From a virus (Duplodnaviria > Caudoviricetes), in the IMG/VR virus record IMGVR_UViG_3300028048_000121, positions 17,751 to 81,750 of that record: a DNA stretch of 64,000 nucleotides. One strand, given 5' to 3'. Positions 361 through 42,770 of this stretch are shown here, piece after piece (positions within the stretch are counted from its first letter, which is position 1; each line of letters starts with the position of its first letter). Made by a program: the position numbers and the translations under genes. The notes beneath the pieces are model-generated. The model ran no database searches, was not told the origin of the DNA, and saw only the letters and a list, made by a program, of their open reading frames with translations.

Positions 361-1701
361 ATGGCAACAAAAAAATTAAAAGGACAACAAGAAGATGCAA
401 ATGGAAAATGTCAATGTTAGAGATGCGGTAAACGCATTGGTCAAATAAATTTTTATACATATAAAGATGGTAGCAAGTGTGAAATTTGTAAACCTTGTCT
501 AACAGCTCGTATTGATAATTTTGATCCTACTACTTTTGAATGGATTCTTGAAAAAATGGATGTTCCTTATGTACCAACTGAATGGAATGTATTAAGAGAT
601 AGGGCTTTTGCTAAAGATCCGTACAAAATGAATGGAATGTCTGTTATTGGTAAGTATCTTGCAAAAATGAAACTGAAACAGTGGAGTAAATATGGATACG
701 CTGATACAAAAAAGATTCAAGAAGAAATGGAAGCTGAAAAGGCTAAAAAGGAGAAAGCAGAAGCTGATGAAAAGGCACGATATGAAGCTGAGCTTAAAGT
801 AAAATTAAGTTAGGGAAAAATATCTCCCGCTCAATATCAGACTCTTGTTAGCACAGAAACTCAAAATAAAGAGTTACTACGTTGGGGAGATGTAATCACT
901 GGTTAGCATTTAGGTCAAATATTTTAGACTAATGGTCAACCGCAATCTTATGAGGAAGCATTAAAGCAAGCAAAAAATCCTTTTCAAGAACAGAATTTTA
1001 TGTCTGAAAGTGATATAATAGACCCTGGCGCTGATTTAGATAAAGAAGATAAAATGTATCTTGCGGTTAAATGGGGAAGGCTTTATAAGCCTAGTCAATG
1101 GGTTGCTCTTGAACAGTTATATAATGAATTTATGGATTCTTTTGATATTCAAGGCGCGGCACGTATAGATACATTAAAAATGATTTGTAAAACTTCTTTA
1201 AAAATGAATGAAGCAATTGATTGCGGCGATATTGATTCTTATCAGAAACTATCTCGTGTATACGATTCTATGATGAAATCCGCAAAATTTACAGAAGCAC
1301 AAAATAAAGATAAAGATGGAGATGCTATTGATTCTGCATCTGCTATTGTTGATTTTGTTGAGGCTCATACTGGTGAAATTCCACGTTATGAATGTAAAGA
1401 GCCACAAGATATTGTAGATCAAATTATTGCTGATTTAAAAGCTTATAATAAGAGTTTAATTTATGAAGATAAATCTTTGGCTCAAGAAATTGAAAAATAT
1501 TTACAAGATAAACGAATTTCAGAAGAAATGAAAAAAGATAAAAAAGATGCAAGAGCAAAAGGTTTGGAAAATGTTGAACTTGAAGATGATGATTTTACTG
1601 ATTATAAAAATTCCTTAAATCATATGAAATCTCATGATAAAGATTTAAATGATGAATTAATTTAGGAAGAATATATAAACAGGAGGGTTCAACACGAATG
1701 A
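361..1701 (+). CDS. Zinc-finger protein upstream of TerL, candidate terminase small subunit (TAG read-through)
   Basis: ATG 361 with SD; same frame as track ORFs 556 and 1000; only TAG interrupts; TGA 1699-1701 overlaps the TerL ATG (ATGA). CxC*RC and CxxC motifs; function inferred from position. Confidence 0.6.
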
Positions 1702-3434
1702 ATTTAAAAGAGTTATTAAAATTATCTTCTGACAGAGAATATAAAAAGCAAGGAATATCAGAATAGCGATTATTAAAAGATATTACTGGATTAAGAAAAT
1801 TAATTGCTTATTTTAGATAGTATCCTGATATTTTTGTTGATTTTATAAAAGGAAAAGATAGTACATTTAATTTTTTATTTTATCAAAGAGTGTTTCTTAG
1901 AATTGTTATGCGGCATCGTTATGTGTACGCGACTTTTCCGCGCGCTTATTCGAAGTCTTTTTTGTCAATGATGGCGCTGATGATAAGATGCATTTTATAT
2001 CCTAACTCACATTTGTTTGTGACCACTGGCGGCAAGGAACAAGCAGCTAGTATCACAATTGCTAAGATCTAGGAAATATGTAAACTTATACCTGGTTTAA
2101 ATAATGAAATTAACTGGGATCGCGGTGTTTCGACTAGATCAAAAGATAATGTTAAATATGTATTTAAAAATGGTTCTACTATTGACATATTGGCGGCAAG
2201 ACAGTCTTCAAGAGGACAACGTAGAACTGGTGGCTTGATGGAGTAGTGCGTTTTAATTGATGGTGATATTCTAAATGAAGTTATTATTCCTACAACAAAC
2301 GTTGATAGACGCTTGTCTGATGGTACTCGTCATAAAGAAGAGAATGTTAATAAATCACAGATTTATATAACCACCGCTGGATGGAAAAATTCGTTTGCAT
2401 ATCACAAACTGATATAGATCTTGATTAATTCAATTTTAGATCCAGATGAATATATGATTATGGGGGGAACTTATTAGACTCCAGTTATTTCTGGTCTATT
2501 GGATGAAGATTTTGTATAGCAATTAAGATTACAAGGTACATTTAATGATGAATCATTTAATAGATAGTATCGTAGTATTTGGTCTGGTGATGTAGAAAAT
2601 GCATTTTTCTCTTCTGAAAAATTTGATAAATATAGAGTATTATTACAACCATAGTATGAATATAGCGGGCGGTCTGCAAAAAATGCATATTATGTATTTG
2701 GAATAGACGTTGGGCGTGTAGGATGTACAACTGAAATTTGTGTTTTTAAAGTAACACCGCAAATTCAAGGGGCAGCTCATAAGACTCTTGTTAATATTTA
2801 CACTTATGATGCAGAACATTTTGAAACTCAATGTATTCATATAAAACATTTATATGCAAAATATAGACCTCGAAGAATTGCAATAGACGCCAATGGCTTA
2901 GGCGTTGGACTAATAGATTATTTAGTAAAAACACAAGATACAGAAGATGGCTAGTATCTTGCTCCTTTTGGAGTTTATAATACAGATGAATATCCTGAAT
3001 ATAAAAAATTTATAACTCCAGATACAGTACGAGATATTTTATTTTTAATAAAAGCAAATGCTCCTATTAATACTGAAGCATATAGTTATGCACAAACTCA
3101 AATGTTTAGTGGTAAAATTAGATTTTTAATTGATGAAGGATTAGCAAAAACTAAATTAATGTCCACTAAACAAGGTCAAAATATGAACATTGATGAAAGA
3201 AATGAATATTTAAGACCTTTTATTTTAACCTCTATTTTAAAAGAACAAATGTTAAATTTAGTAGAAGAAAATGAAGGAGTTAATATTATTCTTAAACAAA
3301 GTAATAGAAGTATCAAGAAAGATAAATTTTCTGCTTTTATTTATGGACTTTATTATATTAGATATGAAGAAGAATTAAATAAAAAGAAAAGAAAACGTAA
3401 TATTTCTGATTTTTTATTTTTTACTCCAAGTTAA
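1698..3434 (+). CDS. terL: Terminase large subunit (about 10 in-frame TAG)
   Basis: Walker A FPRAYSKS, RGQRRTGGLME* Walker B, ITTAG coupling motif, FNR*Y, nuclease GIDVG and KDKFSA motifs; one frame joins track ORFs 1890 and 3102. Confidence 0.9.
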
Positions 3435-17172: not shown

Positions 17173-17205
17173 GGGAGGGTTATTATATAATCCTCCCATT
17201 TTTTT
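17173..17205 (+). terminator. Rho-independent terminator
   Basis: GGGAGGGTTAT-TAT-ATAATCCTCCC followed by a T-run. Confidence 0.7.
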
Positions 17206-17229
17206 ATTAGATTGGTGGTATATAGAAAC

Positions 17230-18462
17230 ATGGAAGCAACTATTTATCATGATCATGAAGAAAATAGAAAAGTTATTTTTTCAGGTATTCAATCAAAAAT
17301 AAAAAATGGATTATAGTAGGATGGATTAAATTATTATACTAATATGACAAAAGATTAGATAGAAAAAAGATTAATTGATTATAAAACTGGTTTTTTAGAT
17401 TATAAAAATAAATTATCAAATACAGACAGTATTTAGGAATATTTTAATGCATATTAGTATATTTTATAGTTTAGAAAATTTATTTTAGGAAATTTAGGAG
17501 AAATTAATTACACTTTTGTTATTAGAACAAATACAAAAGATTTTGTTAATATTCAAACTCTTACATTGGGGTCAGCATCTTTTATAGATTTAATAAAAAA
17601 TTAGTCTGGAGTTATTACTGGTTTAAAGAGAGATGGAGATAATATTAGAATTTCTGGAATTATTCCTAAATTAAGAGAATTAATTGTATCTATACAAGGA
17701 CAAGGAATGCAAATAAAAATTTCTCAAAATTGTAGCTCTTTCGTTTTAACTAATGATAGACTAGGTACTCGACAAGAGTTTTCAAATGGAAAATTATTTA
17801 AATCATATATTTAGACTTTACAAAGACATCAAAATGCTGGAAAATGGTATGATTTTGAATTAAAAATTAATAAAGATAATTCTACTGAGAGTGAGACTAA
17901 AGTTTTTAGTATTGAAATACTAAATGTGCATAATAGTCCTAAATCTTCTAGTATTTTTTCTGCAATAGGAAAATATTTTACTGATGAGACAATTGCTAAA
18001 AAAAATATTGCTAATTTAGCTAATATAAGTATAGATTCTAATATGCCAAATGCAGGTAATTTAACTGAATTATATATTCTTGCTAAGGCAAGATTAAATA
18101 ATGGACAAAATAATTTTTATCATCCTCGTAGACAACCTGTAAAAGGATAGGATCTTTTTGCATTATACAAATAGGTAAAAAGTAATACTAATCCTTTTTA
18201 TTCTGGTGGTGACTTTTTAATGAATCAAATAAAAAGTTTTCTTGGTTCCAATCCATCTTTAACTAGTTATAAAACAATAAGAAAATCAATTGAGAATTTT
18301 TATAATGCATTAAATTCTACAAATACATAGACAATAAAAGAATCTCTATCAAAATTATTATTACAAAAATCATCTACTTAGAATACTATTACTGAGATTT
18401 AGAAAGATTTAAGTAATGACATAGCAAATGCTTTTGAGCAATTTTTTAGTAAATTACAATAA
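17230..18462 (+). CDS. Hypothetical protein, about 410 aa, very TAG-rich
   Basis: Frame is open for 1.2 kb except for about 13 TAG, including tandem TAGTAG at 17314; ends TAA. Confidence 0.65.
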
Positions 18463-23703: not shown

Positions 23704-26700
23704 TTACTCCTTTATATTAATTCTTTCATGTTCTAAAGTCATATTTGAACCGTTAATATTTACAATTCTATATAATTGATGTGTTGAGGTTGTTTTATAA
23801 GTTTTAGCAACAAATGTATCTTCTCTTCTATATCCTGTTACCATAATTTTGGTTCCTCTAGAAAACCATCCTTTTTCTAATACTTTTTTACTACCATCTG
23901 TTTGTACTTCTGAAATTTGACGATTATACATGGCATAATATTCTTTAGTAAATTTTACATTAACAACACCTTCTGTTGTTAAAACCATAACCGATGCTTT
24001 TGTATTATTTTTACTAATAATTGTTCCTGCAATTTTATATAATTTAAAGATTGGAATATCTCTACCAGCTCTTTTGAAGAAATAATCTATTTCAGGTTCA
24101 TATGATAAAGTTGAAAAATTAACAATACCATATTTATGTTTATCAATATTAGCTAATTCATGTTCATGATAGTAAAAACACAAACTTTCCATTTCCCATG
24201 CGGAAATATTTCCAGTCGCATATTTATTCCATGTTTCATTAAATAACAAATTGTTATATTGATTTAATACTTCATTTTGATTTTCTTTTAACCAATTTCT
24301 TGCTTCATCCATTTCTTTTTGATAGATTTTATCCCATTTTGTTTGGAGAATACAAGTAATTCCATTAATAACATCAAGTTCATTTAAATCATAATATTGT
24401 GAATAAAAATTTAATGAACCTTCATCAAACACATAATATTTACCAACTTTTTTATTATCCTTAAGAAATTTATTAAAAACAAATACTTGTTTTTGTTTAT
24501 TTAATTCTTCTGGTACTAATCCACTTTTTAACAATCCATTAAAGTTCTGTAAAGTTAATCGTTTCTTTGGATCGCAAATTAATGATATATAATAAGCCAT
24601 AATTGAATATCTTGGATTTTCTTTACAAATTTTTGATGCCCATTTATTATCAATCTTATCAAAGGCTCCTGACTTAATTAAAGATACCATTTGAGTTTTA
24701 TTTAATGGGCATCTGCTCATAAAATCAATAATACCTTTATATGGGCGGCCGCTAATAATTTGATCAATTACTGGTCCACCAATTTTATTAACACCTTTTA
24801 GTCCAAACAAAATTTCATTATTTATTTCATCTGGTTCAAAACTAAAACCAGATTTATTAATATCAATTAGAGATACCTTAATTCCTCTTGATGTTATATC
24901 ACCAATGGCTTTTGCTAATTTGGAATAATCAGTTGATTTATCTTTTGTATTACCATCATCGTCATCGTCTTCTTCATCTTCAAGAGATGCGCTATTAACA
25001 ATGAGACAAGCTGTATTCCAATAAATTGGATTCCAATGAGTTGCAATATAAATTGTTTGCACTCCGATAAATGAATACGCAAGAGCGTGAATAATTGAGA
25101 ATGAATACCCCATCTGAGGTCCAACACCACATTCCCAAATATATTTACCAAGAGCAGGACTTGTTGCCTTATCCAAAATTTGTTGATGCAATTCTGGAAT
25201 TTTTGCCATTTGTTTTTTACCAACAATCTTGCGTGCGGCGTTTGCTTCTTTAAGAGAGAAACCACAGATTTTATCATCCATCAACATTCGCATTAACTGT
25301 TCCTGAGATGGAGGTACTCCATAAGATTGTTTAAAATATGGTTCAACCGCAGTTTGCTCTTCTTTTGTTAAACCAGCTCGATCCATTTCTTGATACCATA
25401 ATGATAAATTATTTTTATAACGAATATATTTTTCCATTGGTGTTTCTGCGCCTTTTTCTGCGGTCATAAGACGCATCAAACCATTGGCATCCGCCATCTC
25501 CAAAATATTCGTTGGTTTAATTTTTTTTGCCGCCTGAGAACCGACATCTGAATCAAACTGAAATATATTTAATACACTACCCTCTTGTAGAGCTTTCCAT
25601 ATTTCTTTTTTATCTAATGGCAAAACTTCTGGATGAAGATATTTATTATATACTTCTCTTAGTGTTAAATTACTATCAATTTTATTATATTTTTGAAGAA
25701 GTCTAATAGTTTCTGCAATTTTGTCTTGTACTTCTGTTACAAGAAAATCATACTTTGTCATACCACATGCTTCACAATTATGAAGATCCCATTGTGTAAT
25801 AATTTCACCTTTTGGAGTCTTCATGAAACATCCAAATTCATATGGATCTTCATCAAACAAAATTACACCTGAAGCATGACTAGAACGTTTATTAACAATT
25901 CCCTCTATCGCCATTGCAATATCTAAAAGACCAGGATATTTGTTTATTTCATTAATAAAAGCTGTAATGGGTTTTCTATCTTTATCTTTATTACCATAAA
26001 CGACATCTTTAAGAGGCCAGAGAAATCCTCTTTCACTTGGAATCAATGATGATAAGTATTGTGCTGTATCTACATCTATTCCATCTCGATAATCAGTTAT
26101 CCATCCATCTTCATTTTCATTTGTTGGTCCAGATACAGTATATCCAGATCCTTGACCCCTATATCCTCGACAAGCTGTAAGAATCGCACTCTTTGTTCCC
26201 TCGGTTCCAAAAGTGGCAATAAGAGTACATCCAAGATTTTTCCTTGAAAGTTCATCAATTTCATTTGAAAAGTTTGCACCACGTTCCTTTTTTATTTCTT
26301 GAAGAATTAATGGTCTTTTGCTTGGACACAGATCGATATCGATGTCGCCAAGTTCTACACGGTCTCGATTGAGATATCTCCAAAATGGCAACTCCCACTG
26401 AATAGGGTCAAGCTGAGTAATACCTAAAAGATAATGATTTAATCCTGAACATGATGAACCTCTACCAGCACCAACTGTACTACCACATTCCCAAAATAAG
26501 TCAACATAATGTTGAAGAGTAATTGGATAACTAAACATATTAGTTTCAAGCTTTTTACTAATCGTTTTTTTAATATCTGCTTCTTCTTCAAGTCGAGAAA
26601 GATAAATATCATTATCTTTATTAAGTTGTTTTAATTTTATTAAACATTCATTTACCCAATATCTTTCATATTTATCATTTGATATTTTCATATTATATAA

Positions 26701-27678
26701 ATTTGGATATTGAGATAAACTTTTATCTTCATATGGAAGATAATTTTTTACTTCTACTTTTGGAATAGTTTGTTTATGTCTAATATCATAATTTTCAATT
26801 TTATTATAAATCTCATATGAATTATTTACTAATTCATCATAATCTAATTCAGATGGAGCAATATTTTCTTTTATATCATTTTCATCTTGAAGATATGTAT
26901 ATTCATAAAATGCATCAACTTCACGTTCTCCACCTTTTGAATTAAGATATGCTTTATGAACAAATCTATCTTCTTTTTTAAGATAATGAGCATCTGACCC
27001 AAGAACCATTTTACATTTAAATGCGGCAGCCACAGCTTTAAGACGCCTATTAACCGCAATTTGTTCGTTTGATTGACCTGGTGCACATTCAATATAGAAG
27101 TCTTCATTAAAAAGATTTTTACACCATAAAATAAATTTTACAATATTATTATGGGCTTCTGTAATTCCTATTGTATCTTTATGTTTTTCAGCTTTAATAA
27201 GATTTAAAACTTGTGATGATACTTCTCCGCCTAAACAAGCTGTTGTTGCAATTAAACTATTTGGATATTTATTAACAATTTCCTCAAGTTCATCATAAAT
27301 AGTTGGAACTCTTTCAAGTCCTCTATCCCAATAGCTGTTCATCCACGCCCTTGAAGATAATTCTCTTAATGCTCTAAAACCAGTTTTATTTTTTGCAATC
27401 AAAATAAAATGATAATATTTTTGACCCATTTCTCTATTTGGCGTTAAATATATTTCATTACCTAGTGCAACTTTAAAATCTGGATGTTCTTTTAATATAT
27501 CTTGAGCATAAAAATTTGCTTGCGGCGCCCCCGATAGACATTCATGATCCGTAAGTGCCAATCCGCATAAACCTATTTCTATCGCTCTATCTATAAGAGC
27601 TGGAATTTTTATTATACTATCAAGCAAACGAATATTTGAGTATTCACTGTGCGAGTGCGGCTCAAAGCGTTTTATCAT
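23704..27678 (-). CDS. dnaE: DNA polymerase III alpha subunit (family C)
   Basis: PHP HSHSEYS/LTDHE, GRGS, DIDID, HASGV, KYDFL, YSFS..HA; 1324 aa with no TAG. Confidence 0.95.
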   Translation of the reverse strand: MIKRFEPHSHSEYSNIRLLDSIIKIPALIDRAIEIGLCGLALTDHECLSGAPQANFYAQDILKEHPDFKVALGNEIYLTPNREMGQKYYHFILIAKNKTGFRALRELSSRAWMNSYWDRGLERVPTIYDELEEIVNKYPNSLIATTACLGGEVSSQVLNLIKAEKHKDTIGITEAHNNIVKFILWCKNLFNEDFYIECAPGQSNEQIAVNRRLKAVAAAFKCKMVLGSDAHYLKKEDRFVHKAYLNSKGGEREVDAFYEYTYLQDENDIKENIAPSELDYDELVNNSYEIYNKIENYDIRHKQTIPKVEVKNYLPYEDKSLSQYPNLYNMKISNDKYERYWVNECLIKLKQLNKDNDIYLSRLEEEADIKKTISKKLETNMFSYPITLQHYVDLFWECGSTVGAGRGSSCSGLNHYLLGITQLDPIQWELPFWRYLNRDRVELGDIDIDLCPSKRPLILQEIKKERGANFSNEIDELSRKNLGCTLIATFGTEGTKSAILTACRGYRGQGSGYTVSGPTNENEDGWITDYRDGIDVDTAQYLSSLIPSERGFLWPLKDVVYGNKDKDRKPITAFINEINKYPGLLDIAMAIEGIVNKRSSHASGVILFDEDPYEFGCFMKTPKGEIITQWDLHNCEACGMTKYDFLVTEVQDKIAETIRLLQKYNKIDSNLTLREVYNKYLHPEVLPLDKKEIWKALQEGSVLNIFQFDSDVGSQAAKKIKPTNILEMADANGLMRLMTAEKGAETPMEKYIRYKNNLSLWYQEMDRAGLTKEEQTAVEPYFKQSYGVPPSQEQLMRMLMDDKICGFSLKEANAARKIVGKKQMAKIPELHQQILDKATSPALGKYIWECGVGPQMGYSFSIIHALAYSFIGVQTIYIATHWNPIYWNTACLIVNSASLEDEEDDDDDGNTKDKSTDYSKLAKAIGDITSRGIKVSLIDINKSGFSFEPDEINNEILFGLKGVNKIGGPVIDQIISGRPYKGIIDFMSRCPLNKTQMVSLIKSGAFDKIDNKWASKICKENPRYSIMAYYISLICDPKKRLTLQNFNGLLKSGLVPEELNKQKQVFVFNKFLKDNKKVGKYYVFDEGSLNFYSQYYDLNELDVINGITCILQTKWDKIYQKEMDEARNWLKENQNEVLNQYNNLLFNETWNKYATGNISAWEMESLCFYYHEHELANIDKHKYGIVNFSTLSYEPEIDYFFKRAGRDIPIFKLYKIAGTIISKNNTKASVMVLTTEGVVNVKFTKEYYAMYNRQISEVQTDGSKKVLEKGWFSRGTKIMVTGYRREDTFVAKTYKTTSTHQLYRIVNINGSNMTLEHERINIKE

Positions 27679-27729: not shown

Positions 27730-27906
27730 TAAAAAAGTCAAGCGAGTTGCCCCGCTTGACTCGAATCAAAAATAAATATTAATTTACGTTGTCCATTGGA
27801 GTGTACCTCCTATAAAGTATTAAGGTATTAATTACAAAAATATTAAATTACTGCAAATTACCTGTACATTGGACCGTACCTCTCTTTCATAATATTTATT
27901 TCTTAC
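27730..27906 (-). ncRNA. Candidate small structured RNA, copy A
   Basis: Own TTGACA-17-TATAAT promoter (27941-27913) and terminator hairpin (27737-27760); no long ORF; conserved blocks shared with copy B. Confidence 0.55.
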
Positions 27907-27948
27907 AATTATATTATACCAAAAATTTTTTATTTTGTCAAATTTTAT

Positions 27949-28395
27949 TTAAATTGGATAATTTAATTCTTTACATTTTATACCATGTGAACAAAAATAA
28001 TCTTGTAAAGCAACTCTTTCACTACATAAATTATTTGGCGCTTCATAAACTATTAAAACAATAGTATCTTTATTAAATTTATTTAAACAAAATTCAAATG
28101 CTTTTATCATTTTATCAAAATCAACAGTTTCAAGTAATTGTCGGTATTCTTTCATTGTAGGACAATTTCCTTGTAAAATGTTTTTATTTTCACAGGGACA
28201 ATAATGAGTTCCCTGAGACTGGACTATAAGAGGTTCATATCGAAGTCCGCATACTATTCCTCTTTTATCTCTATAATATTCTTCGCCTTGAGGCGGGCGG
28301 TACCAGTCTGGATCGCGGAGGCAGGTTGAAACAGGTATGAGATTAGGGGTAAAGTTCCTAATCTGATAAAAATAGCTAGTTTTTATTTTTATCAT
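27949..28395 (-). CDS. DUF488-like protein, paralog A
   Basis: IKTSYF start, YE.PNNLCSER motif; clearly similar to 29383-29829. Confidence 0.65.
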   Translation of the reverse strand: MIKIKTSYFYQIRNFTPNLIPVSTCLRDPDWYRPPQGEEYYRDKRGIVCGLRYEPLIVQSQGTHYCPCENKNILQGNCPTMKEYRQLLETVDFDKMIKAFEFCLNKFNKDTIVLIVYEAPNNLCSERVALQDYFCSHGIKCKELNYPI

Positions 28396-28581
28396 TATAT
28401 TCATTTATCGCTTTCTTTAAAACTTCTTTTGGTATTATTTCATAATTTCTTTTATTAAACCAATAATATCCAGGTTTATCTTCTACTGTTTCAAAAGTAA
28501 AAATTATTTCAATTTCCTTCAATCAATCTTCTTAATTCGCTTTCTTCTACTAATCTATATTTTTTCATAAAATCCCCTTAT

Positions 28582-28935
28582 TTAATAATATCCTACTTTA
28601 TCATACATTTGAGCATATGTTTTTACATGATTATGAGTTAAAACACCTAATAATGTTTCTTTATCATCTTCTTCTTTTATATATATACGTGCTGTATCTG
28701 TAGTGATAGCAGAACGTCCTTTAGGTCTAGTTAATCGTTTAGCGCAATTCTCAATTCTTTTCATATCAGTCGTGTTTAACTCCATCCGACCTTCTGTTCC
28801 CACTACTACAAAGATAGGTTTTCCATTTTTAAATATAGGTTTGGTGTCTTTTATTTTACCGCACCATTTAATACTATATTCTTCATGCACGTCTGTTACT
28901 ATAAGGTGACTCTTTATATTAATTTCTTCTATCAT
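28582..28935 (-). CDS. Hypothetical protein
   Basis: Intact ORF with SD. Confidence 0.55.
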   Translation of the reverse strand: MIEEINIKSHLIVTDVHEEYSIKWCGKIKDTKPIFKNGKPIFVVVGTEGRMELNTTDMKRIENCAKRLTRPKGRSAITTDTARIYIKEEDDKETLLGVLTHNHVKTYAQMYDKVGYY

Positions 28936-28936
28936 T

Positions 28937-29143
28937 TTATTTCTCCAAAGAATTAAAAAAATCCATTATATCATTACTTACTTCTCTTGTAATTATGTTC
29001 TCACTTCGAGGAGCATCTTTAGATTTGTGATAAGGATGAATTTCCTTCCAGCATTTTAGCATATGCTTTCTAACTTTATCTTCTATTTTAAATTCTTTAC
29101 TACAAGTTGGACATACATACATTTTATTATTTACCTCTTTCAT
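28937..29143 (-). CDS. Small C2H2-like zinc-finger protein
   Basis: YVCPTCSKEF....VRKH; may start at MYVC. Confidence 0.55.
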   Translation of the reverse strand: MKEVNNKMYVCPTCSKEFKIEDKVRKHMLKCWKEIHPYHKSKDAPRSENIITREVSNDIMDFFNSLEK

Positions 29144-29174
29144 TTATATTATATTTATATTATAATATAATAAA

Positions 29175-29340
29175 ATAAAAAAGTCAAGTGGGAAACAATC
29201 CCACTTGACATATAAAATAAATATTTTTAAGCTACATTGTCCATTGGAGTGCCCTCCATAATTCTTGTTGAAGCGTCTACGGGTTACAAATTATTTAGCC
29301 CATTGGACCGTACCTCTCTTTCGTAATATTTATTTCTTAT
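29175..29340 (-). ncRNA. Candidate small structured RNA, copy B
   Basis: TTGACA-17-TATAAT promoter (29375-29347), terminator 29181-29210, same conserved blocks as copy A. Confidence 0.55.
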
Positions 29341-29382
29341 AATTATATTATATCAAAAATTTTTGAAGTTGTCAAATTTTAT

Positions 29383-29829
29383 TTAAATTGGATAATTTAA
29401 TTCTTTACAATTTATACCATGTGAACAAAAATATTCTTGTAGACACTTTCGTTCACTACATAAATTATTGGGAGCTTCATATACCATTAAAACTATAATA
29501 TCTTTATTAAATTTATTTAAACAAAATTCAAATGCTTTTATCATTTTGTCAAAATCAATAGTTTCAAGTAATTGTCTATATTCTTGCATAGTAGGACAGC
29601 TACCTTTTAATATTTCTTTTTCTTCGCATGGGCAATAATGCGTTCCCTGAGATTGGACTATAAGAGGTTCATAGCGGAGACCGCATATTATTCCTTTTTT
29701 GTCTATATAATATTCTTTTCCTATTGGCGGTTTAAACCATTTAGGATCTGATAGACAAGTTGAAACTGGCACCATATTTTGTTTAAAATTACGAATTTGA
29801 TAAAAGTATGAAGTATATATTTTTATCAT
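29383..29829 (-). CDS. DUF488-like protein, paralog B
   Basis: IYTSYF start; near-duplicate of 27949-28395. Confidence 0.65.
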   Translation of the reverse strand: MIKIYTSYFYQIRNFKQNMVPVSTCLSDPKWFKPPIGKEYYIDKKGIICGLRYEPLIVQSQGTHYCPCEEKEILKGSCPTMQEYRQLLETIDFDKMIKAFEFCLNKFNKDIIVLMVYEAPNNLCSERKCLQEYFCSHGINCKELNYPI

Positions 29830-32626: not shown

Positions 32627-34407
32627 TAAAAATAATACCCCTCATCTATAATTTCAATATTTTCAACAATTAATTGAGGATAAATTTTATTATTCCAAAA
32701 ATTTTGATTGCATTTGCAAATTGCATTTGCTTCTTTAAATTTATCTGGTTGAACAGTAAATTTTTCAATCTATTCTTCAGTTCCATTAAACTTAATAATA
32801 GATAATCCATTTTTAAGATTAAATTTTAAAGTATTACTTTTCATTATTTGAAAATTAGAATTTGTAATTTTAAAATTAATATTTACATAAGCTCTATCAA
32901 TATCTTGTCCCCAATAGTCATTCATGTTTGCAATATCTAATATTGTTTGATTATTATTTTCATTTTCTTTAAAATCATAATCAATTCTGTAAATAGGCTC
33001 AATAGATACATCTTCTAATAGTTGATCAATATGATAAAGAAAATTATTAACTTGATTTCCTTTTATTCCAATACCATGTGCATTATCATGTCCTTCTACA
33101 TAAATTACTTCAGGACATTGTTCAAGAATTTCTTTAAAACTATTAATTCCAGTTTTTGTATATCCGCGTCCAGAACCTTCATATGTTTCCTCACCTTTTC
33201 TATTGGTTCTCGTTAATAAACAACATGGTCTTTGATATTTTGCCATAAATTTATTTGCAATCAAACCGCGAATTTCAGAATCAATTTGACCAGGTTCTAA
33301 TAAAAATAAAAGAATTTTATGGTCAAGCATATGATTAGTTTCAATCATTTTCTCTAACATAGCCAAACCTGCATCTTCTGCTCTTGTCTGTCTATTTTTA
33401 ACATTTGTAACTATTCTAATTGCTTGTAAAATTAATTTTTCTGTCTCTCCTAATTTATGTCCATGTTTATTTGAAATAACTTCTTCAAATGCTTTATGAT
33501 TTAGCATAGCATTAAATAATAAATTTTTCTATTCTATAGTGCCACTTCTGGTAATAGCATTAACAAAAGGAACAATAAAAAAGGCGGCGCCGATAGAAGT
33601 ACAACTCATATCAGAATTAGAAGGAATATAGTCTGGTTTAGTTAATGGAAAAGAGTTTTTATCAAGCATATAATCAATAAAAGGATTTTTTATATTCTAT
33701 TTTTTAAATCCTTTTGTAATTAAATAGCGAGTTTCAAATGAACGTAAACTCATCATATCTGCATCTAATCCAAGAGCAACTAAATCAATAAAATTATCAG
33801 CATAATTTACATTTAATATACTATCTATATATCGACAAAATTGCCAGACTACGCCAACACCAGATAATTCTTTATTAGGATAATCAGATAATTGATTATT
33901 AATAATTACTGCATATTCACTAATATGATCTGCTAAATGGTGGTCTAATACTAATACTCCTATTCCTTTTTTAAATAGTTGATAATGATAATCATAATCA
34001 TTGCTACTTGAATCTGGACAAATTACTAATGAATAATTATTAGATATTTTATTTATACAATCAGATAAGCCATGCTGCTTACTATCATGCATTATCCATG
34101 TTAAATGATTATTAATCCAAGTTGGAAATATTGAATATAAATAATTAATTAAAAGGGCGGCTGATGTATATCCATCGCAATCACAGTCTACAACAATTAA
34201 AGCATTTTGATTCTTTGATATTGTATTAAGTAATAATTTTAATCCATCTTTTAAATTTTTCTATCCTAATAATAAGGGTGAATTAATATCTTTATCTGAT
34301 AAATTTATATAATGTAATATATCATTTTCTGCAATACCTCTATTATATAAAACTTGTTGAATTGCTGAAAAATTTTTATTTGGTTTATTTATTAATTCAT
34401 ATTTCAT
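32626..34407 (-). CDS. recJ: RecJ-like DHH ssDNA exonuclease (TAG read-through)
   Basis: DCDCDG, PDSS, LDHH, ADMM, GSGRG, GHDNAHG; joins ORFs 33697 and 32770; TAATG coupling at 32626. Confidence 0.85.
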
Positions 34408-34466
34408 TTAATTACTTCCTTTTATTTTAATATTTATATTTATTATATCAAAAAAAGAAAGAATTG

Positions 34467-35141
34467 TCAAGTCAATTCTTTCTTTTTCCAATAGTAATTT
34501 TTATATTTAGTATGTAATTCTATTGCTCTAGTTAAAGGTTCGTAACAAGTAATATTTAAATAATTTAAAGCTTCTTTTTTAGAATCAAATGTTTTTAATA
34601 AAATTTCATTATCATCAAACATTTGGATAGCAATTTTATTATTTGGTTTTCTTAATTTAGCTTTTTCACTCATAATTTTTTTAGCTTCAGTAGAATGCTT
34701 TTTGCCCTTAAAAGGATTTTCATGCGTTAAAAAATATTCTTTTTGTTGTTTGCTAAGTTTAGCTTTTTCTTTTTTACCTTTATCAGTCTAATAATACTTT
34801 TTTAAAGAATTACTAATTTTTAATTTTAATTCATCGGTTTTTTCTGGGGTTGCATCTCCACCTGCTGTTTGATTATATCCATATAAACTATTATTAGTGT
34901 TATATAAAGCAATTAATTCAATTTCTTTTTGTTTAGCCTATTGCTCTGTTAAATTTGTAAAAAGAATTTTATGCTAAAAATTATTCCATCCATATTTCTA
35001 AATTGCTTTATAAAAAATTTGTCGTTTATAGCCTAAACCATTTTTCCATCTTTTATTTGGATCTTTTTCTGATGTAATACCAATGTATTTTTTATTATTA
35101 ATTTTATTAATATGAATATAAACTTGCCACTTATTTTCCAT
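34467..35141 (-). CDS. GIY-YIG homing endonuclease (TAG read-through)
   Basis: VYIH.N..N.KKYIGIT, GYNQTAGG, NUMOD3-like GKKHSTEAKK; ATG overlaps the primase end. Confidence 0.75.
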
Positions 35142-41632: not shown

Positions 41633-41729
41633 ATAATCTCCTTAAAAATTTTCTATTTATATTATAACAAAAAAAAGAAAACTTGTCAAAGTAATAAAAC
41701 CTTTGACAAGTTTCTTTAAAAATATATAA

Positions 41730-42770
41730 TTATTCTGAAGGAAATTCTTTGGAAAGTAAGAGGAGATCATCATAAATCAAAGATAAAGCTTCAACCTGTT
41801 CTCTCGAACACTGACTCATCTTTTGACCTTTACCTAAATATCTATCAGTAATCTGAACGATACGAGGCTGATAAAATTCTCTAAAGATTTCTTCAGAATT
41901 ATTATCAATCATTCCCTTAATTAGATTATTACAATTCTTCATTAACTCATCAAAATTAAGGTCTTTAGTAGTATCTGTATAAAGATTATTTTTCTTATCT
42001 GTAAAATATTCTTGTCCATCTTCTTGAGCTTGTTTATCAATTGCATCAGAAATAGCTTTAACAAGATTATCATAAGAAAAATCAATATAATCTGGTGTAT
42101 ATTTAAATCTAGAACCAGCTTCATATCTTGGAGTGCCACGCATAAAAAGCTTAGTTATATTATTGCCATCTTTATCCGTAACAATTCTAGAATATCCAAT
42201 AATATCTGCCATTCTAGCTACAATATTATTTGCTCTTTTATCAAGAGTTGGAACAATCTTATTATACTCTGCACCAGCTTCATCTTTAAAAACCTTATCT
42301 GTTGCATGAGAAATAAGAATAAGACCGTAATCCATCATAACAATAGATCTAAGACATTCATCAAATTCTTTTGATACAAGTCCATATCCTTTACCAAAAG
42401 GAATGTCACTAATACTATCAACCCCATAGCCGCCATCTGAACGAAGTGCATTGTCACAAATATATTTAGTGCAATAATCATAAGCAATATCACAAGTATC
42501 AATAGTAATAGTATAAAATTTTTCTTTTGCTTTTGGATCTTTGAGCTGGCGGAGAACTTTCCTAAATTCTGCCCAGTTATTAATAGGCTGCGCCATTACG
42601 CCAGGAATGGCATTATAACCTTTTTCAAAAGCTAAAAGAAGGTTATTTTCAAATTTTGATGCGGTTGTTGTCTTACCAGACTTTGGTTCTCCGTAGAAAA
42701 AGATCGAGTATCCGCGAAGATTTCTACTCACTTGATGCGGCTAAATGTTAAAAATATTAATATCTGCCAT
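41730..42770 (-). CDS. AAA_24/Sak4-like ATPase, putative recombinase (TAG at codon 10)
   Basis: YGEPKSGKTT, ITIDT, LISH; ATG 42770 with SD AAGGA. Confidence 0.7.

What the first reader, a model, noticed from the sequence alone, without database searches (positions are those of the whole stretch)
27730..29340. Two copies of an independently transcribed small RNA with conserved ends, a variable middle and two micro-ORFs
Seen on the - strand: each copy has a perfect SigA promoter, then GAAAGAGAGGTACGGTCCAATG, an unrelated middle of about 45-60 nt, a GGAG-loop-CTCC hairpin, CAATGGACAAYGTA, and an intrinsic terminator. GUCCA can pair with UGGAC to close the molecule. Each conserved block is also an SD+ATG giving tiny ORFs: M-Y-R-stop or M-G-stop, then MDNVN or MDNVA, all ending TAA. 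Inference: a trans-acting sRNA whose variable middle could be a targeting region, or a ribosome/termination-factor decoy. This is of extra interest in a recoded phage.
Basis: partly seen in the sequence, partly recalled or inferred. Interest (0 to 1): 0.7.

Follow-up and report, generated by a model that had tools for sequence, protein, structure and literature searches.

The report
Twin-RBS structured small RNA in phage
A stop-codon-recoded cattle-gut phage carries two copies of a small, self-contained and well-folded RNA gene of an uncatalogued family, built around two ribosome-binding-site look-alikes that pair with each other; what it does is still unknown.

Summary
On the minus strand, each copy (A about 29177-29375, B about 27731-27941) has an exact TTGACA-17-TATAAT promoter, a 126/138-nt core and a terminator hairpin whose 3' arm carries the -35 box of the next promoter.

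It is a family, not a chance repeat. I found 41 distinct versions in phage and metagenome contigs. It occurs once per genome except here. It was in 28 of 35 close relatives and in 0 of 45 distant ones. No Rfam family matches.

All versions fold alike: a closing helix between the 5' leader and the pre-terminator tract, an internal loop showing a long Shine-Dalgarno-like run, a helix between the two GUCCAAUG/CAAUGGAC boxes that buries both start codons, a variable-length arm (the "unrelated middle") and a GGAG/CUCC hairpin. A divergent version sits in a tRNA array near the amber-suppressor tRNA and has a different closing helix.

The micro-ORFs are present in 41 of 41 versions and never end in TAG, but show no coding signature. 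No antisense target rises above chance.

Best reading: a stable phage sRNA that engages ribosomes as an RBS decoy or minigene. The mechanism is unproven.

The parts
29347..29375 (-). Copy A promoter P1: TTGACA, 17 nt, TATAAT, with TG upstream of the -10 box
   Evidence: Exact consensus match; sequence read
29214..29339 (-). Copy A folded core (126 nt, subtype A): closing helix, SD-like internal loop, box1:box2 helix, short P2 arm, GGAG/CUCC hairpin
   Evidence: Model R1 scores 124.9 bits. MFE fold -26.1 kcal/mol, z -2.49, with 1 of 200 shuffles folding as well
29301..29322 (-). Copy A box 1: SD-like run plus GGTCCAATG. Micro-ORF1 (ATG GGC TAA) is at 29295-29303
29227..29249 (-). Copy A box 2 (CTCCAATGGAC...) with micro-ORF2 MDNVA-stop at 29227-29244
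29177..29209 (-). Copy A intrinsic terminator: an 11-bp stem plus a U run. Its 3' arm holds the -35 box of P2 (29159-29187)
   Evidence: Fold; compensatory pairs; P2
27913..27941 (-). Copy B promoter P1
27768..27905 (-). Copy B folded core (138 nt, subtype B, with an extended P2 arm)
   Evidence: R1 scores 101.6 bits. MFE -29.0 kcal/mol, z -2.90, with 1 of 200 shuffles folding as well
27858..27888 (-). Copy B box 1 (27867-27888) with micro-ORF1 ATG TAC AGG TAA (27858-27869)
27779..27801 (-). Copy B box 2 with micro-ORF2 MDNVN-stop (27779-27796)
27731..27762 (-). Copy B intrinsic terminator. It overlaps P2 (27713-27741), which serves the DNA polymerase III alpha-like gene (23704-27678)
   Evidence: Pfam hits for the polymerase
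29383..29829 (-). 148-aa Cys-rich gene just upstream of copy A. Its 151-aa paralogue at 27949-28404 lies upstream of copy B. Both are part of the duplicated segment
   Evidence: Alignment A1; no Pfam family at E<=0.01

Best explanation
Each copy is a gene for a stable, structured small RNA of about 165 nt.

**Proposed sequence of events**
1. The host sigma-A RNA polymerase makes the RNA from a consensus promoter, and it ends at a strong intrinsic terminator. This is inferred from sequence only.
2. The RNA closes on itself into a three-way junction. The 5' leader pairs with the tract just before the terminator.
3. The two near-identical modules (SD, about 5 nt, UCCAAUGG) pair with each other and bury both start codons.
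4. The second SD is held in a GGAG/CUCC hairpin. The first, long SD-like run (GAAAGAGAGGU) is left open in an internal loop.
5. My most likely mechanism, which is inferred and not shown: the RNA works through the translation machinery. The open SD run captures 30S subunits. They then either sit there (an RBS decoy, which also protects the 5' end) or melt the box helix and translate the 2-5-codon frames over and over, as minigene RNAs do. Either way, ribosomes, release factors or tRNAs are drawn off early in infection.

That it is a real, conserved, folded RNA gene I hold at about 0.8. The ribosome-engaging mechanism I hold at about 0.3-0.4.
For: **A real family**
- 41 distinct full versions, drawn from 31 viral contigs and from part of the 119 metagenome loci.
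- Found in 28 of the 35 loci whose polymerase N-terminus is at least 78% identical, and in 0 of the 45 more distant ones.
- Each of 4 complete relatives has one copy.

**Fold**
- All 24 MFE folds show the closing helix.
- 87.9-88.7% of cells are paired, against 36-53% when the partners are slid.
- The cores alone score z -2.49, -2.90 and -2.05.
- The divergent member L227 (39.3 bits, E 1e-4) keeps the architecture but has a different closing helix, UAUCCUAAUG/CAUUGGGAUA, and a different P2 arm.
- With L227 and L046 included, 13 of 34 pairs change on both sides, against 4.7 +/- 1.1 in shuffles; 0 of 500 shuffles reach 13.
- In L018/L034 the ATG-to-TTG change in box 1 is matched by U-to-A on the P2 partner strand.

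**Ribosome link**
- The SD-to-start spacing is kept in 41 of 41 versions. This includes L046, where the 5' block is rewritten to AAGGAGG.
- Both frames are always short: 2-4 and 3-5 codons.
- The in-frame stop after box 1 comes sooner than in the other two frames (median 2 codons against 5 and 8).
- Stops are TAA 76, TGA 6 and TAG 0 out of 82, in a phage that reads TAG as sense.
- The same GGAGG-N4-UUCCAAUG form is the start site of a glyceraldehyde-3-phosphate dehydrogenase-like gene in a Clostridia MAG (L294).
- Shorter minigenes give more peptidyl-tRNA drop-off (PMC2490762, passages read).
- Minigene RNAs that sequester a tRNA exist (PMC8501985, abstract read).
Against: - No transcript ends are shown. 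The RNA-library data are contigs only, and one exact 726-nt contig (X1) runs from copy B across its terminator into the polymerase gene, which fits DNA carry-over or read-through.
- On the unfitted alignment, covariation does not exceed shuffles: 4 pairs against 3.8. The significant result rests mainly on two divergent sequences and on a model-fitted alignment.
- Both start codons and the second SD are base-paired in the predicted fold.
- The frames show no coding signature. Codon 3 of ORF2 varies at its second position (AAT, AGT, ACT, AGG). The last sense codon differs widely, with 12 ORF1 and 13 ORF2 peptides, so no single tRNA is targeted.
- The G/C-rich rare codons (GGC, GAC, TAC, AGG) are equally explained by the helices they sit in.
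- Five distant complete or near-complete relatives have no copy, although one of them (G005) carries tRNA(CUA). The RNA is therefore not needed for TAG recoding.
Confidence: 0.4

Rival explanations
1. A purely non-coding structured RNA that binds a protein or another partner. Candidates are a phage or host factor, or the neighbouring 148-aa Cys-rich protein. On this view the SD/AUG look is a by-product of the G/C-rich helices in an AT-rich genome.
For: - The fold is conserved, with a variable peripheral arm, as in many structured RNAs.
- The start codons and the second SD are paired.
- The frames have no coding signature.
- In close relatives the element always follows the 148-aa gene, and in the window it was duplicated together with that gene.
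Against: - The SD-like run is kept when its sequence is rewritten (L046).
- Both modules keep the spacing of a real start site.
- TAG never ends a frame.
- The tRNA-array members lack the 148-aa gene within the stretches held.
Confidence: 0.28
2. A cis-acting leader. The RNA acts on the polymerase that transcribes it, either by processive antitermination (put/EAR-like) or by attenuation. This would set how much P1 transcription reads through the terminator into the replication genes.
For: - It sits directly upstream of the DNA polymerase gene in most relatives.
- The layout is a short leader ending at a strong terminator, as with the phage lambda late leader (recalled, not from a call).
- One exact RNA-library contig bridges copy B's terminator into the polymerase gene.
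Against: - The downstream gene has its own consensus promoter inside the terminator.
- In all 24 folds the terminator hairpin is independent of the core.
- The downstream genes differ between relatives, and one lineage has the element in a tRNA array.
- No Rfam leader or antiterminator family matches.
Confidence: 0.12
3. Mainly a DNA-level element. Either a mobile promoter-terminator cassette (a moron) or a pair of quasi-palindromic protein-binding sites (GTCCAWTGGAC).
For: - The boxes are quasi-palindromes, and the A-to-T change at their centre is the same site read on the other strand.
- The unit appears as an insertion: absent in distant relatives, duplicated here, and present as a 96-nt half-module between tRNA(CUA) and tRNA-Met in G001 but not in its sister G002.
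Against: - The good complementarity runs from the left half of box 1 to the right half of box 2, not within each box. The other halves pair with other partners, which points to an RNA helix.
- The closing helix and the P2 arm covary in divergent members.
- The sites lie 35-120 nt downstream of the promoter, not over it.
Confidence: 0.1
4. A trans-acting antisense sRNA whose variable middle selects targets.
For: It has its own promoter and terminator, and there are two subtypes with different middles.
Against: - The middle folds into an arm with conserved base pairs and a conserved loop motif.
- The longest perfect antisense match in the 81.7-kb record is 13 nt for both copies. Shuffled copies give 11-17 (A) and 12-18 (B) nt, most often 12-14.
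- The host genome is unknown, so host targets were not tested.
Confidence: 0.05

Closest known systems
Toxic minigenes: phage lambda bar regions and synthetic 2-8-codon minigenes
   Same: Phage-borne, with a strong SD, a start codon, one to a few codons and a stop. Shorter frames give more peptidyl-tRNA drop-off and slower termination (PMC2490762, passages read, which cites the lambda bar work of Hernandez-Sanchez 1998).
   Different: - No single last codon or tRNA is conserved here (12 and 13 peptide variants).
- Here there are two frames, set in a conserved three-way-junction fold with its own promoter and terminator.
- No toxicity data exist.
CreT tRNA-sequestering RNA toxins of CreTA modules
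   Same: A small RNA whose active part is a minimal, highly translated frame. One example is a six-codon ORF (PMC8501985, abstract read).
   Different: - CreT depends on two consecutive rare codons for one tRNA, and it is repressed by a CRISPR-derived CreA RNA next to cas genes.
- Here there are no tandem identical rare codons. I did not look for a CRISPR context.
Leader-peptide attenuators and 5' SD-type stabilisers of Firmicutes mRNAs
   Same: Short frames or an SD-like run near the 5' end of a transcript that ends at, or is protected up to, a terminator. The stabiliser comparison is recalled, not taken from a call.
   Different: The terminator does not take part in any alternative pairing. 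The downstream gene has its own promoter. There is no regulated or protected coding region.
Stand-alone three-micro-ORF unit of Lachnospiraceae/Clostridia genomes ('group X', found here)
   Same: Promoter-to-terminator unit with SD-N5-GUCCAAUGGG and GGAGG-AGAUUCCAAUG modules and 2-7-codon frames.
   Different: - Not matched by model R1 at E<=1.
- It has a third frame.
- Its frames do show a coding signature: MKGR(D/G)P with synonymous third-position changes.
- Homology to the phage RNA is unproven.
   Same: None reaches threshold.
   Different: The best hits (Qrr at 25 bits against a cut-off of 50; L20 leader at 23.8 against 58.7) are driven by the terminator.

Membership tests
Any Rfam 15 family | Score at or above the family's gathering threshold | tested here: not met
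   five hits at E<=10, all far below their cut-offs. on related loci found only tRNAs.
tRNA-sequestering minigene RNAs (lambda bar, CreT) | Strong SD plus a start codon plus a frame of about 2-8 codons | tested here: met
   41 of 41 versions have both frames, of 2-4 and 3-5 codons.
tRNA-sequestering minigene RNAs (lambda bar, CreT) | A conserved rare codon (tandem in CreT) that traps one particular tRNA | tested here: not met
   12 different ORF1 and 13 different ORF2 peptides, with no tandem identical codons. The codons used are rare in the phage (GGC 10%, GAC 11%, TAC 8%, AGG 8% of their families), but they lie in helices.
tRNA-sequestering minigene RNAs (lambda bar, CreT) | Growth arrest relieved by peptidyl-tRNA hydrolase or by extra tRNA | not testable with these tools
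   Needs expression in a laboratory Firmicute.
Leader-peptide transcription attenuator | The ribosome's position on the leader frame decides between terminator and antiterminator pairings | tested here: not met
   In 24 of 24 MFE folds the terminator hairpin stands alone. The ORF2 stop lies about 17-25 nt before the stem.
Leader-peptide transcription attenuator | The downstream gene depends on read-through | tested here: not met
   An exact TTGACT-17-TATAAT promoter lies between the terminator and the next gene in both copies.
Trans-acting base-pairing sRNA | An unpaired, conserved seed with above-chance complementarity to targets | tested here: not met
   Longest antisense match is 13 nt against a shuffled spread of 11-18 nt. 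This covers the phage record only; the host was not available.
Structured ncRNA family (generic criterion) | Conserved secondary structure supported by covariation | tested here: inconclusive
   Not significant on the MAFFT alignment. Significant on the model-fitted alignment with two divergent members (13 pairs against 4.7, 0 of 500 shuffles), but that alignment leans towards the structure.

The most novel reading that the evidence does not exclude
The RNA is an accessory part of the phage's code-change toolkit. It would be an early, abundant ribosome-engaging minigene RNA whose tiny frames end only in TAA or TGA. By tying up ribosomes, release factors or peptidyl-tRNA recycling, it would tilt the infected cell towards reading TAG as sense. 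This would explain why divergent copies sit beside the amber-suppressor tRNA.
Probability: 0.1. Interest if true: 0.85.

Novelty: new variant of a known kind. Interest (0 to 1): 0.55.

Why it matters
Little is known about how stop-codon-recoded phages take over a host that uses the standard code, beyond suppressor tRNAs and occasional release factors. The preprint on recoded phages itself raises "novel types of RNA molecules" as a possibility (10.1101/2021.08.26.457843, passages read). In term searches, 'small RNA', 'ncRNA' and 'non-coding' had 0 occurrences both in that preprint and in PMC10607447, a paper describing other TAG-recoded gut phages of about 136 kb.

This element is a compact, well-conserved RNA of an uncatalogued family in one such phage clade. 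Its architecture looks made for ribosomes, and it is easy to test at the bench. If it proves to be a ribosome decoy or a minigene, it would be a natural phage example of a mechanism known mostly from lambda bar and CreT. If it is a protein-binding RNA, it is a new structured family with a clear three-way-junction core.

Tried and rejected
- **Rfam scans** of the region and of related loci found nothing but terminator-driven noise and tRNAs.
- **ARAGORN** found no tRNA or tmRNA in the window.
- **blastn** of the 1.7-kb region against deposited phage genomes gave no match.
- **RNA evidence.** 10 RNA-labelled runs from bovine gut hold the stretch. Four were laid and all four gave contigs on it. 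Contigs cannot show ends, strand or level, DNA carry-over is possible, and gaps in cover mean nothing. So there is neither support for nor evidence against a discrete transcript.
- **Antisense targets.** The first script timed out. The faster version found nothing above chance.
- **Group X** (Lachnospiraceae three-micro-ORF unit) was considered as the bacterial homologue. I did not file it as one, because model R1 does not match it.
- **A group-Y-specific 18-mer** gave no hit in viral contigs.
- **A +1-frame ATG-TAG read-through sensor** in subtype A was considered. I dropped it because it is absent in subtype B and has no SD at working distance.
- **A hammerhead-like look** of the group X terminator loop was dismissed as a plain hairpin.
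- **Earlier-findings look-ups** by place and by sequence were empty.
Full report
**What is there**

Read on the minus strand, the region holds two units with the same plan. Copy A runs from about 29375 down to 29177. Copy B runs from about 27941 down to 27731.

Each unit starts with an exact TTGACA-17-TATAAT promoter preceded by TG. The window has 6 such exact sites against 0.16 expected, and 4 of them lie here. Next come:
- an A/U-rich leader;
- the block GAAAGAGAGGTACGGTCCAATG (two exact copies, 0.00 expected);
- a middle of 43 or 56 nt;
- a GGAG-loop-CTCC hairpin;
- CTCCAATGGACAAYGTA (two copies, 0.03 expected);
- the tract AATATTTATTTT;
- a G/C-rich hairpin with a U run.

The 3' arm of that hairpin contains TTGACT. 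Seventeen nucleotides further on is TATAAT. This is a second exact promoter (P2) that serves the next gene. Two other promoters in the window (34442-34470 and 41661-41689) are built the same way, fused to a terminator.

The two units are part of a duplicated segment of about 730 nt. That segment also includes the preceding 148/151-aa Cys-rich gene (alignment A1). Copy B is followed by a 1324-aa DNA polymerase III alpha-like gene (Pfam PHP, DNA_pol3_alpha, finger and HHH_6).

**The genome**

The window is part of an 81.7-kb IMG/VR virus record estimated 61% complete. It is 29% G+C, and reading TAG as sense lengthens many frames. A RecJ-like gene at 32629-34407 keeps its DHH and RecJ_OB domains across four in-frame TAG codons.

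Four complete relatives of 133-144 kb carry 13-24 tRNAs, each set including a tRNA with anticodon CUA.

The nearest deposited phages are only about 40% identical in the polymerase: Enterococcus phage EF1 and SPbeta-type Bacillus phages. A Bacillota host is likely.

**It is a family**

- A 16-mer from the 5' block found 11 related viral contigs plus two unrelated G/C-rich chance hits.
- I fetched 80 loci around relatives of the polymerase N-terminus and scanned them with a profile. The unit was in 28 of the 35 loci with at least 78% identity. Of the seven without it, four have no or under 650 nt of upstream sequence.
- It was in 0 of the 45 more distant loci. A covariance-model search agreed.
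- In the distant relatives, the 148-aa gene is followed directly by a terminator/promoter module and the polymerase gene. The unit is therefore an insertion specific to one clade.
- A structure-aware pattern found 31 viral loci and 119 metagenome loci.
- In all there are 41 distinct full-length versions plus 3 partial ones.
- Every contig has one copy except the window's record, and each of the four complete relatives has one.
- The window's two copies belong to two subtypes. Copy A matches the short-arm subtype and is nearly identical to L030/L170. Copy B matches the long-arm subtype and differs from L237 by one base. This is not a recent in-place duplication of one sequence.

**Fold**

Both copies, and all 24 first-round versions, give MFE structures with the same outline:
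- **H1**, a 10-14-bp closing helix between the leader AAAUAAAUAUU and AAUAUUUAUUU.
- **An internal loop** that leaves GAAAGAGAGG unpaired.
- **H2**, the short helix UAC/GUA.
- **H3**, GUCCA/UGGAC. RNAalifold extends it to GUCCAAUG/CAAUGGAC with a central A.A mismatch.
- **A junction** bearing the arm P2 (AUGGG/CCCGU in subtype A) and the GGAG/CUCC hairpin.

The "unrelated middle" is P2. It is short in subtype A. In subtype B it is longer, with an inserted hairpin in several members, and a UUUGUAAY motif is shared.

Without the terminator, the cores fold better than shuffles: z = -2.49 and -2.90, with 1 of 200 shuffles as good in each case.

*Covariation.* On the plain MAFFT alignment of 38 cores, 87.9% of cells pair against 39-49% for slid partners. 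But covariation does not exceed shuffles (4 pairs against 3.8), because most paired columns never vary.

Model R1 built from that alignment finds a divergent member in metagenome contig L227 (39.3 bits, E about 1e-4) and its truncated relative L133. L227 keeps the loop, H3, the hairpin and the junction. Its closing helix is UAUCCUAAUG/CAUUGGGAUA and its P2 is different (z -2.05).

On the model-fitted alignment of 39 sequences, 13 of 34 pairs change on both sides, against 4.7 +/- 1.1 in shuffles (0 of 500 shuffles reach 13). That alignment leans towards the structure, and most double changes come from L227 and L046.

A telling detail concerns the lineage L018/L034/L235, where both boxes read CCAUUG. 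There the box-1 change is compensated on the P2 partner strand: A-U becomes U-A.

I conclude that the fold is real, with moderate rather than strong statistical backing.

**The micro-ORFs**

- Both are present in 41 of 41 versions. ORF1 has 2-4 codons and 12 different peptides. ORF2 has 3-5 codons and 13 different peptides.
- Of the 82 stops, 76 are TAA, 6 are TGA and none is TAG.
- After box 1, the in-frame stop comes sooner than in the other frames (median 2 codons against 5 and 8).
- The SD-to-start spacing is kept even in L046, where the 5' block is rewritten.
- The two modules are near-repeats of each other, for example GAGGUAUAGUCCAAUGG and GAGGUACACUCCAAUGG in subtype B.
- The same GGAGG-N4-UUCCAAUG form starts a glyceraldehyde-3-phosphate dehydrogenase-like gene in a Clostridia MAG (L294). 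These are credible ribosome-binding sites.

Against translation mattering for the peptide:
- Variation is not biased to synonymous sites.
- The variable codon of ORF2 coincides with an internal loop, and its constant codons coincide with helices.
- The rare G/C-rich codons are what the helices need.
- In the predicted fold, both start codons and the second SD are paired.

**Link to recoding**

In L227 the element lies directly after tRNA-Tyr and about 170 nt before a tRNA(CUA). In L133 it follows tRNA-Leu and tRNA-Tyr.

In the complete relative G001, a 96-nt insert sits between tRNA(CUA) and tRNA-Met. It begins with a box-1 half-module: the SD run followed by TTG GAC AAT TAA. The sister genome G002 lacks this insert. 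Elsewhere in these genomes the box motif is rare.

This is suggestive, but two results speak against an essential role:
- Five more distant complete or near-complete relatives have no copy.
- One of them, G005, does carry a tRNA(CUA).

- *Rfam:* no family, skipping-rope included.
- *Targeting middle:* the longest antisense match in the phage record is 13 nt for each copy, within the shuffled range. The host could not be tested.
- *Transcript:* 10 RNA-labelled bovine-gut runs hold the stretch. The four that I laid all gave contigs on it, including small contigs covering just the interiors of copies A and B, and one 726-nt exact contig running from copy B into the polymerase gene. Contigs show neither ends nor strand, and DNA may be present.

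**How it most likely works**

*Shown:* the sequence features, the family, the conserved fold and the ever-present twin start-site modules.

*Inferred:*
- Transcription starts at P1 and ends at the terminator, giving an RNA of about 163-175 nt.
- Paired ends give stability.
- The unpaired SD run meets 30S subunits. It is complementary to the 16S rRNA tail over about ten bases, which I state from recall.
- The outcome is either decoy-like capture or repeated translation of 2-5-codon frames. The known consequences of such minigenes would follow: drop-off and slow termination (PMC2490762) and tRNA sequestration in CreT (PMC8501985).

I rate the RNA-gene claim at about 0.8 and this mechanism at about 0.3-0.4. 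A protein-binding ncRNA is the main rival. A cis-acting leader, a DNA-level cassette and an antisense sRNA follow in that order.

**Comparison and novelty**

It works most like a minigene or RBS-decoy RNA, but it fails the defining test of the tRNA-sequestering minigenes, because no conserved rare codon or single tRNA is involved. It is not a leader-peptide attenuator: there is no alternative pairing, and the downstream gene has its own promoter. It matches no Rfam family.

Term searches in two papers on recoded phages gave 0 occurrences of 'small RNA', 'ncRNA' and 'non-coding' (PMC10607447; 10.1101/2021.08.26.457843). These were term searches and passages only; I saw no supplements. I ran only two literature searches, on recoding and on minigenes. 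My claim that the element is uncatalogued therefore rests on Rfam, on those two searches and on those two papers.

I file it as a new variant of a known kind: a phage-encoded stand-alone small RNA, here with a twin-RBS three-way-junction core.

Noticed in passing
L185 300-610; also L260, L262, L257, L283, L286, L289, L292, L293, L297, L303: Lachnospiraceae/Clostridia genomes (including Lacrimispora indolis, Ventrimonas faecis, Clostridium spp. and Parablautia) carry a stand-alone promoter-to-terminator unit with three micro-ORFs. The middle one, MKGR(D/G)P-stop, varies at synonymous third positions, which is a coding signature. The last is VKL..(H/C/S)-stop. The unit shares the SD-N5-GUCCAAUGGG form with the phage RNA, but model R1 does not match it. 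No Rfam hit.
   Followed up: partly
L325 168-263 (G001:C1:84317-84412): A 96-nt insert lies between tRNA(CUA) and tRNA-Met. It starts with a box-1 half-module (SD run, TTG GAC AAT TAA). The sister genome G002 lacks it; there the two tRNAs are 3 nt apart.
   Followed up: partly
L227 400-565: A stretch of about 170 nt, G/C-richer and looking structured, lies between the element and the tRNA(CUA). No Rfam match at E<=0.1.
   Followed up: no
L329 5223-5297 (G003): ARAGORN calls a tRNA with anticodon UUA (would read TAA) in a complete relative, besides its tRNA(CUA). Not checked further.
   Followed up: no
window 32629-34407 (-), 1656-3434 (+), 17191-18462 (+): Genes are open only if TAG is read as sense, with 4, 10 and 13 in-frame TAG codons respectively. 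The first is RecJ-like, with domains on both sides of the TAGs. TAG makes up 6.4 per 1000 codons in long frames.
   Followed up: partly
window 28376-28568 (-): Between the 117-aa gene and the 151-aa gene, a short frame starting at 28568 runs into TGA, and a +1 frame continues to a TAG at 28376. This may be a frameshifted or decayed small gene in the segment between the two copies.
   Followed up: no
window 34442-34500 and 41661-41730 (-): Other early promoters are also fused to hairpin-plus-U-run modules, with the -35 box in or beside the hairpin. This looks like a house style of terminator/promoter junctions in this phage.
   Followed up: partly
L010 / L043 (polymerase codon 6): A relative has an in-frame TAG at a position where the other relatives have Glu in the DNA polymerase N-terminus. 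Recoding therefore reaches replication genes in that lineage.
   Followed up: no
window 29383-29829 and 27949-28404 (-): The duplicated 148/151-aa Cys-rich protein has no Pfam hit at E<=0.01. From memory, its ends resemble DUF488-like phage proteins (a recalled resemblance, not tested).
   Followed up: no
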